DNA of 13,501 nt from a virus. The translations under genes were made by a program, and so were the position numbers. The notes below the pieces were generated by a model that made no database searches, was not told the DNA's origin, and saw only the letters and a program-made list of their open reading frames with translations. Positions 9,515 through 13,205 of the stretch are shown here, piece by piece. The stretch lies in UHGV virus genome UHGV-1805255; one strand, given 5' to 3'. The first letter of the stretch is position 1; every line of letters starts with the position of its first letter.

Positions 9515-9540
<26 letters not shown>

Positions 9541-10060
9541 TCAGCAACCCCGGTATCAGTTCATCCAGCGCGGCTGCTTTGTTCATGGCTTTGATAATAT
9601 CCCGTTTCAGGAAATCAATATGCCGGTTATCCAGCTCAGGAAAACGTCGCTGCACCGACAGAGGAATACCGTCGAGAATACTGGATATTTCCCTTGCTAT
9701 ACGCGACAGCACGAAAGTACAGAATGCGGTTTCCACCACTTCAGCCGATTCTTTGGCATTTTTCAGTTCCTGCGCCGTCGCCTGAGCACGAGTCAGGCGA
9801 TGGCGCTCAAATTCAAGTGTTCCGGGGTGAAGATCTGCCTCGCTGGCCAGCCGCAGTTCTTCAACCTCCCGGCGCAGCTTTTCGTTCTCAATTTCAGCAT
9901 CCCTTTCGGCATACCATTTTATGACGGCGGCAGAATCATAAAGCACCTCATTACCCTTACCACCACCCCGCAGAACGGGCATTCCCTGCTCCTGCCAGTT
10001 CTGAATGGTACGGATACTCGCGCCGAAAATGTCAGCCAGCTGCTTTTTGTTGACTTCCAT
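9515..10060 (-). CDS. Nu1: Terminase small subunit Nu1
   Basis: 181-aa ORF (MEVNKKQLADIFGASIRTIQNWQEQGMPVLRGGGKGNEVLYD...) matching lambda gpNu1, with the N-terminal winged-HTH region. ATG at 10060, directly downstream of cosB. Confidence 0.97.
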
Positions 10061-10199: not shown

Positions 10200-10237
10200 T
10201 TAAACCGGAAAATTTTCATAAATAGCGAAAACCCGCG

Positions 10238-10249
10238 AGGTCGCCGCCC
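10238..10249. other. cosN: 12-nt cohesive-end sequence (GGGCGGCGACCT on the minus strand)
   Basis: Plus strand aggtcgccgccc at 10238-10249 is the reverse complement of the lambda cohesive end. The 49 nt on the Nu1 side are identical to the lambda left end as I recall it. Confidence 0.9.
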
Positions 10250-10310
10250 CGTAACGGCCCGGATCGCCGGAAAGGACCCGTAAAAATGATAATGGTTATC
10301 ATTTTCAATG

Positions 10311-10498
10311 TAGTCCGGTTTCTTCCACCATCGCACCGGACAGGCGACTATGAGGGGACAACGCCGCGCTCCGTTAACGCGGTAAACCCCGGTGTGTATC
10401 GTTTTTGATTATCCCCGCACACTCGCGCAGAGGAGTCTCCCTGTCGGGCTGCGGTCTCTGTTAATGAGGGAATACAGCGACGATACGGCGCATGATGT
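10311..10498. repeat. Copy 1 of a ~190-bp imperfect direct repeat (cos-proximal copy)
   Basis: By-eye alignment with 12086-12285: ttcttccacc...cagg...atgagggaca...gcggtaaa...ccggtgtg.atcgtttttgattat..ccgcacactcgcgcagaggagt...gtcgggct.cggtc...gttaatg.gg.aatac.gcgacgat. Roughly 85-90% identity over the core. Confidence 0.8.
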
Positions 10499-10524
10499 GT
10501 CAGGCTTGAATACATTTATCCGTT

Positions 10525-10550
10525 AAAAGGGATATCAGTTAAGTTATCCC
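10525..10550 (-). terminator. Weak terminator-like hairpin 3' of cargo gene B
   Basis: The mRNA reads GGGAUA-ACUUAACUGA-UAUCCC followed by UUUUAACGG. The 6-bp stem is AU-rich and the U-tract short, so this is a weak call. Confidence 0.25.
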
Positions 10551-10607
10551 GTGTAGGGTATAAGCCATTATCAAAGCCACTCAGTAGCGAATGGCTTTTG
10601 TAATGGA

Positions 10608-11057
10608 CTATTTAATTAGTGATGCTGCGTATTCGATTAGATATAACTTAGGTGCCAACCAGATTTTTAACCATGTCATATTGGTTACTACAGCAATAAT
10701 AAAACTTACCCACAGAACAAAAACTGCTGCTAATGGTAAGATAAGAAAACTAATCTCACCGTTACTTTCCCAAATCATGGTCGGTTTGTATTTAGGCTTC
10801 CCTTTTTCCCATGACCATCCTTCATTATCGAACTTACCAATTTCAACTTTTTGGTACTGTTTCTTCATAAACCAAATAACCAGCGGGATTGTTGAAATGG
10901 CTATTAATGTTTTAATCAGGCTATCAACCATATTCCATACCAGCAACTGATGAACAACATCCGGAATCTGAGCCTGACTGAATGCAATGGCGGAATCAAT
11001 TCCATCGCTGGCCTTCTTCAATAAATCAACAAGAATTTTATTTGCTTCTTCTTGCAT
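10608..11057 (-). CDS. Cargo gene B: small (149 aa) predicted two-pass membrane protein, function unknown
   Basis: ATG at 11057 preceded by AGGA at about 7 nt; the track ORF begins upstream at a TTG. Two hydrophobic segments (SLIKTLIAISTIPLVIWFM and ISFLILPLAAVFVLWVSFIIAVVT) flank a Lys-rich loop. About 37% GC in a sampled stretch. No homolog recognised. Confidence 0.7.
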   Translation of the reverse strand: MQEEANKILVDLLKKASDGIDSAIAFSQAQIPDVVHQLLVWNMVDSLIKTLIAISTIPLVIWFMKKQYQKVEIGKFDNEGWSWEKGKPKYKPTMIWESNGEISFLILPLAAVFVLWVSFIIAVVTNMTWLKIWLAPKLYLIEYAASLIK

Positions 11058-11181
11058 GTTTATATCCTGTAAGTTGTAAGCCTGTTCGAGAAAAATAAAC
11101 AACTACGAGAGACAGAAAAAAATATCTCAGGCTCTCTTTCTATAAGCTTTTAGTTGAGGATGTTCTGCAAAACAAAACTGG

Positions 11182-12042
11182 TTAGTTATGTAACTGCTTC
11201 CGGAATACAACAGCCGACGAGCTACAACGTAAAATTCGTTTGATTGTGGCAGTTGAGGAAACAGACTTGCATTTCTCAACATCATCAATAATGACCACAT
11301 CCGGTACAGGAATGACGCGGGTATGCAATGTTTTTGCACTAATAACATCACAGCCATTCAGTGGTCGAATATCTGCATCTTCAGGCACTACCAGAAGCAC
11401 ACGTTTTTCCGGTGCAGAAAAGCCAGCAGCAAGAGTGCGTGACAATAAAGTCATTCCGCTGCGTGGCTTCATACAAATTTCAGAAATATGATTCTTTTCG
11501 TCCAAATGATGCTGGACATCATTTTTATCATCACTCAACAACTCTGCTGTTAATACAATCCCTGCTGTCTCAGATTTCCAGGAAATGCTGATATCCTGAT
11601 CATCTGCATCAACATCATATTTCATCGAGTAAGGACTAAAGCTACGTCCAACGAACGCATCATTTACCAGTACACGCCCACCCTGTCTGACCTGAAAGTC
11701 AACGCGCCCGGAAAGCTGATTTGCTGTTACAAGCAATGCCTTTTTTCTTTTTGTTTTATTGCTCATTGCCACCAACTGTTCAGCCATCTCTCTTGTCACA
11801 CTACCAGAAACTCTTCCTTGCATTTTCACAGAAAATTTTCTGGATGTAGTAGCATCGACATTAAAAAATCTGGATGTAATCAGGCAGTTATTAACAATTG
11901 GCATCAGCTCACTTACGATTGTAAAAAATTCCCGGTAAAGCTCATTTTGCTTTTCAACACACAGCTTTCCACAATCGTCCAGCTTACGCTCAAGAGCACT
12001 TAACCTTTCCATTATTGAATTAATTTTTTGCAACTCTTTCAT
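11182..12042 (-). CDS. Cargo gene A: 286-aa protein of unknown function, predicted soluble, N-terminal coiled-coil-like segment
   Basis: ATG at 12042 preceded by AGGAGG at 5 nt (MKELQKINSIMERLSALERKLDD...). The track ORF extends to a TTG at 12303 through the GC-rich repeat, with an R/C/S/P-rich translation that I do not consider coding. About 38% GC in sampled stretches. TAA stop at 11182. Confidence 0.75.
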   Translation of the reverse strand: MKELQKINSIMERLSALERKLDDCGKLCVEKQNELYREFFTIVSELMPIVNNCLITSRFFNVDATTSRKFSVKMQGRVSGSVTREMAEQLVAMSNKTKRKKALLVTANQLSGRVDFQVRQGGRVLVNDAFVGRSFSPYSMKYDVDADDQDISISWKSETAGIVLTAELLSDDKNDVQHHLDEKNHISEICMKPRSGMTLLSRTLAAGFSAPEKRVLLVVPEDADIRPLNGCDVISAKTLHTRVIPVPDVVIIDDVEKCKSVSSTATIKRILRCSSSAVVFRKQLHN

Positions 12043-12065
12043 CAAAACCTCCTGACAAAGATACC

Positions 12066-12083
12066 GTGCGACCACGGTCGCAC
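12066..12083. promoter_or_regulatory. Palindrome gtgcgacc-ac-ggtcgcac (copy 1), candidate operator / protein-binding site upstream of cargo gene A
   Basis: Perfect 8-bp inverted arms around a 2-bp centre, 24-41 bp upstream of the gene A ATG and directly abutting repeat copy 2. Confidence 0.5.
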
Positions 12084-12085
12084 GC

Positions 12086-12285
12086 TCCTGAATACATGCC
12101 CTGTTTCTTCCACCCTCGCACAGGACTGGCGAGCATGAGGGACAAACCCGCGAATCATTAGTGCGGTAAAAACCCGGTGTGCATCGTTTTTGATTATTTC
12201 CGCACACTCGCGCAGAGGAGTTCCCCGTCGGGCTACGGTCATGGTTAATGCGGAAATACGGCGACGATGCAGCGCGGTATTTAAT
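12086..12285. repeat. Copy 2 of the ~190-bp imperfect direct repeat (upstream of the cargo cassette)
   Basis: Aligns with 10311-10498 (see copy 1). It is bracketed on both sides by the 16-18-bp palindrome. Confidence 0.8.
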
Positions 12286-12302
12286 GTGCGACCACGGTCG
12301 CA
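12286..12302. promoter_or_regulatory. Palindrome tgcgacc-ac-ggtcgca (copy 2)
   Basis: Same core as 12066-12083 with 7-bp perfect arms. Centre-to-centre spacing is 220 bp, about 21 helical turns. Confidence 0.5.
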
Positions 12303-12322
12303 AACGAGAAACAAAGAGATTT

Positions 12323-12634
12323 TTATGCTACAGAGGAACAAGCTGGCGGGTAATTCAGCGTAGTGAATACCGGCATCTCCATCTTGTATGCGTAATGATA
12401 CTCAGCAGTTGCTCCAGCAGACGCTTTCCAGCCAGGAAGCATCAAAATAGCATCAGCACAACGAAGCATTGCAAAGCAAATATCCATGTATTCACGTTGT
12501 GTCAAACCATTAGGCAAAGTGGCTGGATTCAAGACAGAGTGACCATGTCGTGACAAACGATCTGCCTCTTTATTAAAGGCGTCACGATTAAAGTTCTCAT
12601 ATCCCGTCATTGGCCCGGCAATATAAATTTTCAT
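12323..12634 (-). CDS. DUF4406 / nucleoside 2-deoxyribosyltransferase-like small protein
   Basis: 103-aa ORF with ATG at 12634 (MKIYIAGPMTGYENFNRDAF...LMLPGWKASAGATAEYHYAYKMEMPVF). The N-terminal IYIAGPxTG and the LPGW-x-S-x-GA-x-x-E motifs fit my recollection of the DUF4406 family. Family assignment is from memory. Confidence 0.6.
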   Translation of the reverse strand: MKIYIAGPMTGYENFNRDAFNKEADRLSRHGHSVLNPATLPNGLTQREYMDICFAMLRCADAILMLPGWKASAGATAEYHYAYKMEMPVFTTLNYPPACSSVA

Positions 12635-12675
12635 TCACTATCCAACAAATTGAGCTCGTTTTTGATACAGAGGGA

Positions 12676-13113
12676 TTAATTCAGGCATTGCGTCTTGATG
12701 TATTCCTGCAAGTAGTTAACCTGCGCAGTTATCCTGTCGATCCCACTTCGGAGACGGTAATAATTGAGTTCAGCATCTGCTGTAAGTCTTGGGCTTTCTC
12801 CATCGCCCATGCTGCTGGCTCCGGTCGTTGACTTTGCACAGGTGGCGGCGACTTGCAGGCGCTTACGCCCAGCAGAAACATCAGCACGGAGGCTTTCGAT
12901 AGTCGCGTTAGCATCAGCAAGCTCCTTTGTATATCTGGCATCGAGTTCTGCTACGTCACGTTGACGCTTCTGCATATCAGCGATTGTGGATGTGGCTTTA
13001 TCGCGCTGCTCTTTGTAGGAGATGGCGTTATCACGGTAATGATTAACCGCCCATGACAGGCAGACGATGATGCAGATAACCAGAGCGGAGATAATCGCGG
13101 TTAACCGACTCAT
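12676..13113 (-). CDS. Rz: i-spanin Rz (inner-membrane spanin subunit)
   Basis: ORF 12676..13149 matches lambda-type Rz from the ATG at 13113 ([34 protein letters not shown]...). N-terminal TM segment, coiled-coil-rich periplasmic part, and an embedded Rz1 frame. Confidence 0.9.
12729..12914 (-). CDS. Rz1: o-spanin Rz1 (outer-membrane lipoprotein, embedded in Rz in +1 frame)
   Basis: Embedded ORF with ATG at 12914: [36 protein letters not shown]... Signal peptide with lipobox-like VSAC followed by a Pro-rich segment, as in lambda Rz1. An alternative upstream ATG at 12941 is possible. Confidence 0.75.
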
Positions 13114-13205
13114 GACATCAACACCCCAACGGCCAGAAACCACGGCCACGCATCGTTGCCATTAAATGCGAGCAACGCTGCCATGAAAAAGAAAATCATG
13201 CTCAT
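13110..13205 (-). CDS. Putative 31-aa hydrophobic micro-protein between R and Rz
   Basis: Hand translation gives [31 protein letters not shown]. Its ATG overlaps the R stop (ATGA) and its TGA overlaps the Rz ATG (ATGA). No RBS is evident, and it is below the size cutoff of the ORF track. Confidence 0.35.

What the first reader, a model, noticed from the sequence alone, without database searches (positions are those of the whole stretch)
10608..11057. Cargo gene B: small two-TM membrane protein, candidate effector or exclusion protein
Two about-20-residue hydrophobic helices are separated by a Lys-rich, Trp-containing loop (KKQYQKVEIGKFDNEGWSWEKGKPKYKPTMIWESNGE). Small membrane proteins at the 3' end of a two-gene accessory cassette are frequently the membrane-disrupting effector of abortive-infection systems, or superinfection-exclusion proteins that block DNA injection. 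It is the last gene before cos on the late transcript.
Basis: inference. Interest (0 to 1): 0.5.

Follow-up and report, generated by a model that had tools for sequence, protein, structure and literature searches.

The report
Widespread orphan phage inner-membrane hairpin protein
The gene is real and encodes a small two-helix membrane protein, but it belongs to a very large, uncharacterised phage family that usually travels alone in early operons, so it is probably a stand-alone phage membrane factor (best guess: it blocks entry of competing phages) and not the killing half of a two-gene suicide system.

Summary
Observation confirmed. Window 10608-11057 (minus strand) is a 149-aa ORF with an AGGA ribosome-binding site, two hydrophobic helices (about residues 42-64 and 102-124) and exactly the quoted Lys/Trp loop. 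It is under purifying selection (dN/dS about 0.14).

The protein matches PHROG 3054 (unknown function; includes Sf6 gp34 and phi92 gp220). A profile search finds 5,346 clusters at 50% identity. Pfam, NCBIfam, PADLOC, PDB sequences and PDB folds give no significant match, and there is no similarity to SieA or SieB.

Gene B does not depend on gene A:
- 62 of the 80 closest viral loci carry B alone, just downstream of antiterminator N in the early-left operon.
- Similarity to those copies starts at the ATG and ends at the stop codon.
- Lytic phages carry B in early regions.
- Gene A is an Escherichia-only orphan (15 clusters), and it is internally deleted in prophages whose B protein is identical.

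The N-terminal 41 and C-terminal 21 residues are nearly invariant across the family; the helices and loop vary. Charge distribution predicts N-out, loop-in, C-out.

Best guess (about 0.3): an Imm-like superinfection-exclusion factor acting at the periplasmic face of the inner membrane. The main rival is a counter-defence or host-takeover factor. Function is untested.

The parts
10608..11057 (-). Gene B coding sequence, 149 aa plus TAG stop; member of PHROG 3054
   Evidence: ORF list and translation. phrog_3054 E=1.3e-58 over the full length. 488 homologues, mostly 149 aa. dN/dS about 0.14.
11065..11068 (-). Shine-Dalgarno-like AGGA, 7 nt upstream of the ATG
   Evidence: Read directly from the sequence.
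10935..11057 (-). Residues 1-41: conserved, acidic N-terminal helical segment (G19, D21, F26, P32, V34, Q37-L39 and W41 are invariant or nearly so); predicted periplasmic
   Evidence: Alignments A1 and A3. dN/dS about 0.07. Family mean for the N-tail is K+R 2.2 against D+E 5.7, with 0.48 K+R in the 12 residues before helix 1.
10866..10934 (-). Residues 42-64: transmembrane helix 1
   Evidence: Hydropathy peak 1.85. AlphaFold2 helix, pLDDT 72-84.
10755..10865 (-). Residues 65-101: Lys-rich, Trp-containing loop; predicted cytoplasmic; variable in length and sequence across the family
   Evidence: Sequence. Family mean of 3.39 K+R in the 12 residues after helix 1. The loop is shortened or absent in Vibrio-phage members.
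10686..10754 (-). Residues 102-124: transmembrane helix 2, the most hydrophobic and least constrained segment
   Evidence: Hydropathy peak 2.82. pLDDT 77-86. dN/dS about 0.96 (short segment, so noisy).
10611..10685 (-). Residues 125-149: conserved aromatic amphipathic C-terminal helix, motif W-L-K/Q-I-W-x-A-P-K-x-x-L-x-E-Y-A-A
   Evidence: I132, A135, P136, K137, E142 and Y143 are invariant in 45 diverse members. dN/dS about 0.03.
10560..10611 (-). Stable stem-loop starting at the stop codon; no U-run after it, so not a canonical terminator; belongs to the lambdoid backbone and not to B
   Evidence: RNA fold -26.1 kcal/mol, z = -5.55. Positions 10540-10606 are 94-96% identical to lambdoid phages that lack B.
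11182..12042 (-). Gene A, 286 aa, PHROG 2571; upstream neighbour, Escherichia-restricted orphan of unknown function
   Evidence: phrog_2571 E=1.7e-137. Only 15 clusters. No Pfam, PADLOC or NCBIfam match. AlphaFold2 model poor, pLDDT 45.6.
10315..10495 (.). Downstream copy of the roughly 180-bp direct repeat that brackets the A-B cassette
   Evidence: Repeat finder and pairwise alignment, 84-90% identity.
12100..12280 (.). Upstream copy of the same direct repeat
   Evidence: This sequence is widespread in E. coli prophages.
10238..10249 (-). cosN (GGGCGGCGACCT), part of a 60-nt stretch that I recall as the left end of phage lambda
   Evidence: The 60-nt pattern has one exact match in the window and none in 200 shuffles. 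Its identity with the lambda left end is from my own knowledge.

Best explanation
Shown: Gene B encodes a real 149-aa inner-membrane hairpin protein. It belongs to a very large, uncharacterised family of tailed-phage proteins (PHROG 3054; Sf6 gp34, phi92 gp220, Pseudomonas phage Bjorn gp18). It is an autonomous module the size of one ORF. In most relatives it sits alone in early operons; here it has been placed, behind the orphan gene A, in the late region between the lysis genes and cos. The family's constant parts are an acidic N-terminal helical segment (residues 1-41) and an aromatic amphipathic C-terminal helix (residues 129-149). The two membrane helices and the basic loop vary.

Inferred from charge distribution: the loop is cytoplasmic, and both conserved ends lie at the periplasmic face of the inner membrane.

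Inferred, with low confidence: the protein is made during lytic growth and acts alone at that face as an Imm-like superinfection-exclusion factor. The membrane hairpin would anchor it. The conserved periplasmic helices would engage either a conserved host envelope component or the membrane-inserting part of an incoming phage's tape-measure or ejection proteins, so that a second phage cannot open a DNA channel. It is not the toxic effector of an A-B abortive-infection pair.
For: Gene reality and membrane character.

Family size and lack of annotation:
- 5,346 representative clusters at E<=1e-3 and 2,432 at E<=1e-10.
- 180 phage records.
- No Pfam match for 45 diverse members.
- The only names in source databases are 'hypothetical' or 'Phage transmembrane protein'.

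Autonomy:
- About 62 of the 80 closest IMG/VR loci place B right after N, N-ral or N-sieB and before cIII, on the same strand as N. Only about 16 are in the lysis-cos position, and one of those lacks A.
- Nucleotide similarity between the two settings runs exactly from the ATG to the last sense codon.
- Annotated examples: Sf6, Gally, Oslo.

Presence in lytic phages, in early or DNA-metabolism regions: N4-like SP-076, phi92, Bjorn, Vibrio phages.

Predicted N-out topology: K+R in 12-residue flanks is 0.48 before helix 1, 3.39 after helix 1, 0.85 before helix 2 and 0.94 after helix 2. The N-tail is net acidic.

Constraint sits in the termini: dN/dS 0.07 and 0.03, against about 0.96 in helix 2.

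Analogy: T4 Imm is a small early inner-membrane protein with a periplasmic N-terminus that binds the tape-measure protein to block genome entry, and HK97 gp15 is proposed to act likewise (bioRxiv 10.64898/2026.03.06.709160). [quoted passage not shown]
Against: - No experiment and no homology links this family to any exclusion protein. SieA hhalign probability is 0.3%, SieB BLASTP gives E>10, and there is no Pfam Imm or SieB hit.
- Known exclusion proteins that bind ejection or tape-measure proteins are phage-type specific. This family keeps nearly invariant termini across sipho-, podo- and myoviruses and across Vibrio, Pseudomonas and enteric hosts, which fits a conserved host target (takeover or counter-defence) at least as well.
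- In phage Oslo it sits next to a bona fide SieB, so it is not simply filling an empty exclusion slot.
- No promoter travels with the ORF, and none was found upstream here. Expression in the lysogen, where exclusion benefits a prophage most, is therefore unsupported.
- Here the gene would be transcribed late, which is poor timing for exclusion.
- The topology is a prediction from charge counts only. The AlphaFold2 model is of modest confidence (pLDDT 64).
Confidence: 0.3

Rival explanations
1. Counter-defence or host-takeover factor. The conserved periplasmic or interfacial helices bind and neutralise a conserved host inner-membrane or envelope component, such as a membrane-embedded defence sensor or motor, or a membrane protease. 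This would help the phage's own lytic growth, with no effect on rival phages.
For: - The usual position is in the early-left operon among known host-modulating or anti-defence genes: ral, cIII, kil, gam/abc.
- It is present in early regions of strictly lytic phages.
- The termini are nearly invariant across phages of different morphology and host genus, as expected for a conserved host target.
Against: - No partner has been identified and there is no homology to any known anti-defence protein.
- The late-operon position in this window is poor timing for an anti-defence factor.
- Membrane-anchored anti-defence proteins are so far rare (my own knowledge).
Confidence: 0.25
2. Lysis-timing modulator (antiholin-, lysis-inhibition- or spanin-accessory-like) that acts with the phage's own lysis proteins in the inner membrane.
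For: - In this window it lies on the late transcript, three genes after Rz.
- Size and a two-helix hairpin are typical of holin or antiholin-type proteins (my own knowledge).
- One of 45 members gave a very weak Phage_holin_3_6 hit, E=0.13.
Against: - Most relatives are in early operons far from the lysis genes.
- The family co-occurs with unrelated holin types: Phage_holin_2_1 and Phage_holin_2_3 in the loci.
- The membrane helices, which carry holin function, are the least conserved parts.
- No significant match to any Pfam holin family.
Confidence: 0.12
3. One reading: B is the membrane-disrupting effector of a two-gene abortive-infection cassette in which gene A senses infection.
For: - A and B are adjacent and on the same strand. 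They move together as a 1.77-kb AT-rich module among lambdoid and N15-like prophages.
- Every intact copy of A seen is followed by B.
- Small membrane effectors are common in such systems (my own knowledge).
Against: - B is far more widespread than A (5,346 against 15 clusters) and stands alone in most loci.
- A carries a 384-bp internal deletion, or is absent, where B is intact and identical.
- No PADLOC model hits either protein.
- B occurs in lytic phages.
- The membrane helices are not the conserved part.
Confidence: 0.07
4. Lysogenic-conversion or host-fitness factor expressed from the prophage (Bor/Lom-like moron) that changes envelope properties of the lysogen.
For: - The position between Rz and cos is where lambda carries bor (my own knowledge).
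- The base composition is foreign to the backbone.
Against: - No promoter was found upstream and none travels with the ORF.
- Most relatives are inside repressed early operons or in lytic phages.
Confidence: 0.06

Closest known systems
PHROG 3054 (unknown function), e.g. Shigella phage Sf6 gene 34 protein, Escherichia phage phi92 gp220, Escherichia phage PhiR46_1 XSB42773.1
   Same: Full-length profile match (E=1.3e-58). Same length class and the same conserved N- and C-terminal motifs and two hydrophobic segments. PhiR46_1 carries a 98.7% identical protein in the same A-B-cos arrangement.
   Different: Most members lie in early operons without gene A. This copy is in the late region behind A. 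None has a tested function.
T4 Imm (superinfection immunity protein) and HK97 gp15
   Same: A small phage inner-membrane protein made during infection. Imm's N-terminus faces the periplasm, as predicted here. Imm acts alone, by binding the incoming tape-measure protein.
   Different: No sequence similarity: no Pfam Imm hit. Imm has a compact four-helix core, whereas this protein is a hairpin with long conserved terminal helices. Imm-type proteins are phage-specific, whereas this family spans many phage types.
P22 SieA
   Same: A phage inner-membrane protein that blocks DNA delivery and is sufficient on its own (PMC10883804).
   Different: SieA has three predicted membrane helices, its own promoter and prophage expression. 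The profile comparison gives 0.3% probability.
Lambda/P22 SieB
   Same: A small membrane protein encoded in the same neighbourhood (N to ral) as most members of this family.
   Different: SieB is on the opposite strand with its own promoter and shows no sequence similarity. It coexists with a family member in phage Oslo and several viral contigs. SieB is an abortive-infection type exclusion protein.

Membership tests
PHROG 3054 (uncharacterised phage transmembrane protein family) | Full-length match to the family profile | tested here: met
   E=1.3e-58, residues 1-149 against profile positions 1-137 of 137.
PHROG 3054 (uncharacterised phage transmembrane protein family) | Conserved N-terminal (…F-x-Q-A-Q/E-I/L-P-D-V-x-x-Q-L-L-x-W) and C-terminal (I-W-x-A-P-K-x-x-L-x-E-Y-A) motifs flanking two hydrophobic segments | tested here: met
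   Alignments A1 and A3. 320 of 341 members show two hydrophobic segments.
SieB (Pfam PF14163; lambda and P22 SieB) | Sequence similarity to SieB | tested here: not met
   No Pfam hit at E<=1. BLASTP E=17 against lambda SieB and E=11 against P22 SieB.
SieB (Pfam PF14163; lambda and P22 SieB) | Own promoter, transcribed antisense to PL, expressed in the lysogen | tested here: not met
   Family members in the N-ral region are on the same strand as N. No promoter was found here.
P22 SieA | Sequence or profile similarity; three membrane helices | tested here: not met
   hhalign probability 0.3%. Two hydrophobic segments here against three in SieA.
T4 Imm (Pfam Imm_superinfect) | Match to the Imm profile | tested here: not met
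   No Pfam family at E<=1 for the window protein, and no Imm hit among the 25 families listed for 45 members.
T4 Imm (Pfam Imm_superinfect) | Blocks genome entry of superinfecting phage by binding its tape-measure protein | not testable with these tools
   Needs plating and DNA-entry assays and co-purification.
Holins and antiholins (Pfam Phage_holin families) | Match to a holin family profile; position in the lysis cassette | tested here: not met
   No hit for the window protein. One of 45 members hits at E=0.13. Most members are far from the lysis genes.
Known anti-phage defence systems (PADLOC-DB v2) | Match of B or A to any defence-system protein model | tested here: not met
   Zero families at E<=1 for A, B and the DUF4406 protein.
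Two-gene sensor plus membrane-effector abortive-infection system (A+B) | Conserved co-occurrence of the two genes | tested here: not met
   B occurs alone in about 62 of the 80 closest loci, and B follows DUF4406 without A in L026. A is deleted internally while B is intact. A has 15 clusters against thousands for B.
Moron (autonomous accessory unit in a lambdoid genome) | Base composition foreign to the backbone | tested here: met
   34-39% GC over B against about 50-55% in the flanks.
Moron (autonomous accessory unit in a lambdoid genome) | Own promoter and terminator, expression from the repressed prophage | tested here: inconclusive
   The consensus scan finds no promoter upstream of A or B on the minus strand. 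Similarity to other copies stops at the ORF ends. The downstream stem-loop belongs to the backbone. There are no expression data.

The most novel reading that the evidence does not exclude
The family is a previously unrecognised, very broadly distributed phage inner-membrane factor. Its invariant periplasmic N- and C-terminal helices would dock onto one conserved envelope machine of Gram-negative bacteria. That would give either a generic, phage-type-independent block to genome entry or a generic switch-off of a membrane-embedded host defence. Either way it would be a new mechanism shared by lambda-like, P22-like, N4-like, phi92-like and marine Vibrio phages.
Probability: 0.2. Interest if true: 0.65.

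Novelty: new variant of a known kind. Interest (0 to 1): 0.33.

Why it matters
Small phage membrane proteins that act alone (Imm, SieA, HK97 gp15) are among the least understood players in phage-phage competition, and only a handful of families are known. This family has thousands of sequence clusters and occurs in temperate and lytic phages of enteric bacteria, Vibrio, Pseudomonas and Betaproteobacteria, including model or collection phages (Sf6, phi92, BASEL). It has a sharply defined conserved surface and no annotation in Pfam, NCBIfam or PADLOC. Assigning it a function would annotate a large block of phage dark matter. It could also reveal either a new exclusion mechanism or a new host envelope target.

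For this window specifically, the result is deflationary. There is no evidence for a two-gene abortive-infection system.

Tried and rejected
- Profile libraries for B: Pfam, NCBIfam and PADLOC gave nothing significant; PHROGs gave only an unknown-function family.
- PDB sequence profile search: one hit, E=0.63, to an LPXTG anchor protein, judged noise.
- AlphaFold2 of B: pLDDT 64. Foldseek against BFVD found only uncharacterised family members; against PDB nothing. The afdb50 library was unavailable.
- Direct comparisons with lambda SieB, P22 SieB and P22 SieA were negative.
- Sf6 gp33, the downstream neighbour of Sf6 gp34, is unrelated to gene A.
- Rfam over the whole window: no family.
- Gene A:
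  - No related locus in species-representative genomes.
  - AlphaFold2 pLDDT 45.6, with only non-significant RecA/P-loop-like resemblances for the C-terminal alpha/beta part. I do not build on these.
- Literature searches (phrog_3054, PhiR46_1, Sf6 gp34, early-left-operon membrane morons, lambdoid hotspots) found no study of this family.
- I considered a clamp-binding-like reading of the invariant Q-L-L-x-W and rejected it, because the predicted topology puts it in the periplasm.
It was redone with A3.

Full report
**Setting.** The window is a lambda-type phage read backwards, so phage-forward is the minus strand. The gene order on that strand is:
- endolysin fragment
- Rz (12676-13149, Pfam Phage_lysis E=5.6e-37)
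- a DUF4406 / nucleoside-deoxyribosyltransferase-like gene (12323-12634)
- gene A (11182-12042)
- gene B (10608-11057)
- cosN at 10249-10238
- Nu1 (9515-10060), terminase A, W, portal and the rest.

A 60-nt stretch that I recall as the left end of lambda matches exactly once.

**The observation.** Gene B is a 149-aa ORF starting at the ATG at 11057, with AGGA 7 nt upstream. Kyte-Doolittle 19-residue windows peak at 1.85 (residues 46-64) and 2.82 (residues 106-124). AlphaFold2 on a 45-sequence alignment gives helices 3-68, 106-125 and 128-148, with its highest confidence (pLDDT 72-86) over the two hydrophobic stretches and a mean of 64. Homologues are almost all 149 aa, which supports the ATG over the upstream TTG. 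Across 54 distinct alleles dN/dS is about 0.14. The gene is real and the description is correct.

**What family it is.** Pfam, NCBIfam and PADLOC give nothing significant. PHROGs gives a full-length match to phrog_3054, function unknown.
- The first protein search found 488 relatives in Escherichia, Shigella, Salmonella, Cronobacter, Citrobacter, Klebsiella and Pantoea.
- tblastn against phage genomes found 180 records. They include Sf6 (gene 34), CUS-3, HK639, Oslo, Gally, N4-like Salmonella phages, phi92-like myoviruses (phi92 gp220), Pseudomonas phage Bjorn, a Ralstonia jumbo phage and many Vibrio phages.
- A profile of 45 diverse members, run against 1.84 billion 50%-identity representatives, found 5,346 clusters at E<=1e-3 and 2,432 at E<=1e-10.
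- None of the 45 members hits a Pfam family convincingly.
- Source databases call the protein 'hypothetical' or 'Phage transmembrane protein'.
- Species-representative genomes with a copy include many Enterobacterales, Pseudomonas and several Alcaligenaceae.
- 151 of 5,426 complete E. coli genomes carry a near-full-length nucleotide homologue.
- PDB sequence and fold searches return nothing meaningful. The viral structure library returns only uncharacterised family members.

**Anatomy of the family.** Conservation is unusual. Residues 1-41 are nearly invariant from E. coli to Vibrio phages (G19, D21, F26, P32, V34, Q37-L39, W41), and so are residues 129-149 (I132, W133, A135-K137, L140, E142-A144). 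The two membrane helices and the loop change freely, and the loop shrinks to about 10-20 residues in many marine members. Among close alleles dN/dS is about 0.07 for the N-terminal segment, 0.03 for the C-terminal segment, 0.14 for helix 1, 0.16 for the loop and about 0.96 for helix 2. These are short segments, so the values are rough.

Charge counts over the 320 members with two hydrophobic segments give, per 12-residue flank:

| Flank | K+R |
|---|---|
| before helix 1 | 0.48 |
| after helix 1 | 3.39 |
| before helix 2 | 0.85 |
| after helix 2 | 0.94 |

The N-tail is net acidic (2.2 K+R against 5.7 D+E). By the positive-inside rule this predicts N-out, loop-in, C-out. The conserved acidic N-terminal helices and the Trp/Tyr-rich amphipathic C-terminal helix would then lie at the periplasmic face of the inner membrane. 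This is an inference, not a formal topology prediction.

**Is it half of a two-gene system?** Physically, A and B are adjacent, on the same strand and AT-rich (34-44% GC against about 50-55% in the flanks). They travel together as a 1.77-kb module: similarity to other prophages runs from window 12083 to about 10310. The module is found in integrated lambdoid prophages and in an N15-like linear plasmid prophage with a protelomerase. Co-occurrence does not hold, however.
- Of the 80 closest viral loci (73-100% identity to B), about 62 carry B alone in the early-left operon, just after N, N-ral or N-sieB and before cIII, on the same strand as N. About 16 are in the lysis-cos position. One of those (L026) has B directly after DUF4406 without A.
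- Nucleotide similarity between the window copy and the early-operon copies begins at the A of the ATG and ends at the last sense codon. The mobile unit is therefore the bare ORF, with no promoter attached.
- In three prophages whose B protein is identical to the window's, gene A has lost 384 bp (window 11263-11646) and is called as a 114-aa fragment or not at all.
- Gene A has only 15 clusters in 5.8 billion proteins, all Escherichia, and only two phage records.
- Lytic phages carry B in early or DNA-metabolism regions: next to RNA polymerase subunits and dUTPase in SP-076, an AAA ATPase and endonuclease in phi92, and DUF2800 nucleases in Vibrio phages. In one Vibrio myovirus it is a reverse-oriented insert among structural genes.

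B therefore works without A. Whether A needs B cannot be told. Gene A itself stayed opaque: there is no family match, the AlphaFold2 model is poor (pLDDT 45.6), and there are only non-significant RecA/P-loop-like resemblances in its C-terminal alpha/beta part.

**Expression.** No sigma-70-like site was found upstream of A or B on the minus strand; the region has fewer promoter-like sites than shuffles. In this phage B should therefore be read on the Q-antiterminated late transcript. In most relatives it is read from PL after N. What the settings share is expression during lytic development, not in the repressed prophage. A strong stem-loop follows the stop codon (-26.1 kcal/mol, z = -5.55). 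It has no U-run, and it lies in backbone sequence shared with lambdoid phages that lack B.

**Mechanism.** Small phage membrane proteins of known function are mostly lysis proteins or exclusion proteins (my own knowledge).

*Exclusion (about 0.3).* The best-supported reading is a stand-alone factor acting at the periplasmic face of the inner membrane during infection. My preferred version is Imm-like superinfection exclusion. T4 Imm is a small early inner-membrane protein with a periplasmic N-terminus that binds the tape-measure protein and blocks pore formation, and HK97 gp15 is thought to act similarly. [quoted passage not shown]

Against this reading:
- There is no homology to any of these proteins.
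- The termini are invariant across phages with unrelated entry machinery.
- B coexists with SieB in Oslo.
- Expression is late in this window.

*Counter-defence or host takeover (about 0.25).* The invariance of the termini, and the neighbourhood of ral, cIII, kil and gam/abc, fit a factor aimed at a conserved envelope component almost as well.

*Lysis-timing role (about 0.12).* This fits the position here but not the early-operon majority, nor the poor conservation of the membrane helices.

**Comparison and novelty.** The protein is a member of PHROG 3054. It fails the sequence tests for SieA, SieB, Imm, the holin families and all PADLOC models. It may work like Imm or SieA without being related to them. 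I rate it a new variant of a known kind: a small, autonomous phage inner-membrane protein belonging to none of the characterised families.

**Verdict.** Interest is modest (0.33). The window-specific claim of a two-gene system is deflated. The family itself is large, unannotated, sharply conserved at its ends and present in tractable model phages, which makes it a reasonable experimental target.

Noticed in passing
window 10315-10495 and 12100-12280: A direct repeat of about 180 bp (84-90% identity, spacing 1785 bp) brackets the A-B cassette. The sequence is common in E. coli prophages between the lysis genes and cos. No reading frame is intact in both copies. It looks like the footprint of recombination that brought the cassette in.
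   Followed up: partly
window 12066-12082 and 12286-12302: A perfect 17-nt near-palindrome, GTGCGACCACGGTCGCA, occurs twice, on either side of the upstream repeat copy. Similarity of the cassette to other prophages begins at 12083, right at the inner copy. It may be a module-boundary or recombination sequence; it also scores as a terminator-like hairpin.
   Followed up: partly
L017 (NZ_CP145143.1, plasmid pCAVP367-48) and L011 (GCA_019397185.1): The same Rz-DUF4406-A-B-cos-Nu1 segment is carried both by an N15-like linear plasmid prophage (protelomerase, CyRepA1 replication protein, 47.6 kb) and by integrated lambdoid prophages. L011 is 99.96% identical to the window over 10200-12700. Many contigs that carry B are 46-48 kb long, which suggests that phage-plasmids are a major vehicle.
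   Followed up: partly
L012, L014, L015 (corresponds to window 11263-11646): Gene A has a 384-bp internal deletion in several prophages whose gene B protein is identical to the window's. So A decays while B is kept.
   Followed up: yes
window 10560-10611 (minus strand): A very stable stem-loop lies immediately after the gene B stop codon (-26.1 kcal/mol, z = -5.55) and has no U-tract. It lies in sequence conserved in lambdoid phages that lack B (HK544, Gally, mEp460). Its role (RNA end protection, processing site or boundary sequence) is unknown.
   Followed up: partly
window 12323-12634 (minus strand): A 103-aa DUF4406 protein (E=3.7e-34; related to nucleoside 2-deoxyribosyltransferases; PHROG 355) is encoded directly after Rz on the late transcript. 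This is an odd place for a nucleotide-metabolism-like gene.
   Followed up: no
window 11182-11470 (gene A residues about 190-286): The C-terminal third of gene A is predicted as a small alpha/beta domain (pLDDT 58-82). It has a VVIIDDVE stretch reminiscent of a Walker B motif, and weak, non-significant resemblances to RecA-like or P-loop NTPase domains (phi12 P4 E=0.38; Foldseek E>=0.2). The rest of the model is unreliable.
   Followed up: partly
window 10686-10754 against 10866-10934 (gene B helix 2 and helix 1): Among close alleles helix 2 evolves at dN/dS of about 1 and helix 1 at about 0.14. Synonymous divergence also looks uneven along the gene (dS about 1.4 at the 5' end, about 0.3 in the helices). 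This could reflect intragenic mosaicism or diversifying pressure on helix 2. The segments are short and the estimates noisy.
   Followed up: no
L009 (phage Oslo) and viral loci L060, L067, L068, L071, L079, L088, L097: In these phages a gene B homologue sits immediately next to a bona fide sieB gene on the opposite strand. The two membrane proteins therefore coexist and do not replace one another.
   Followed up: yes
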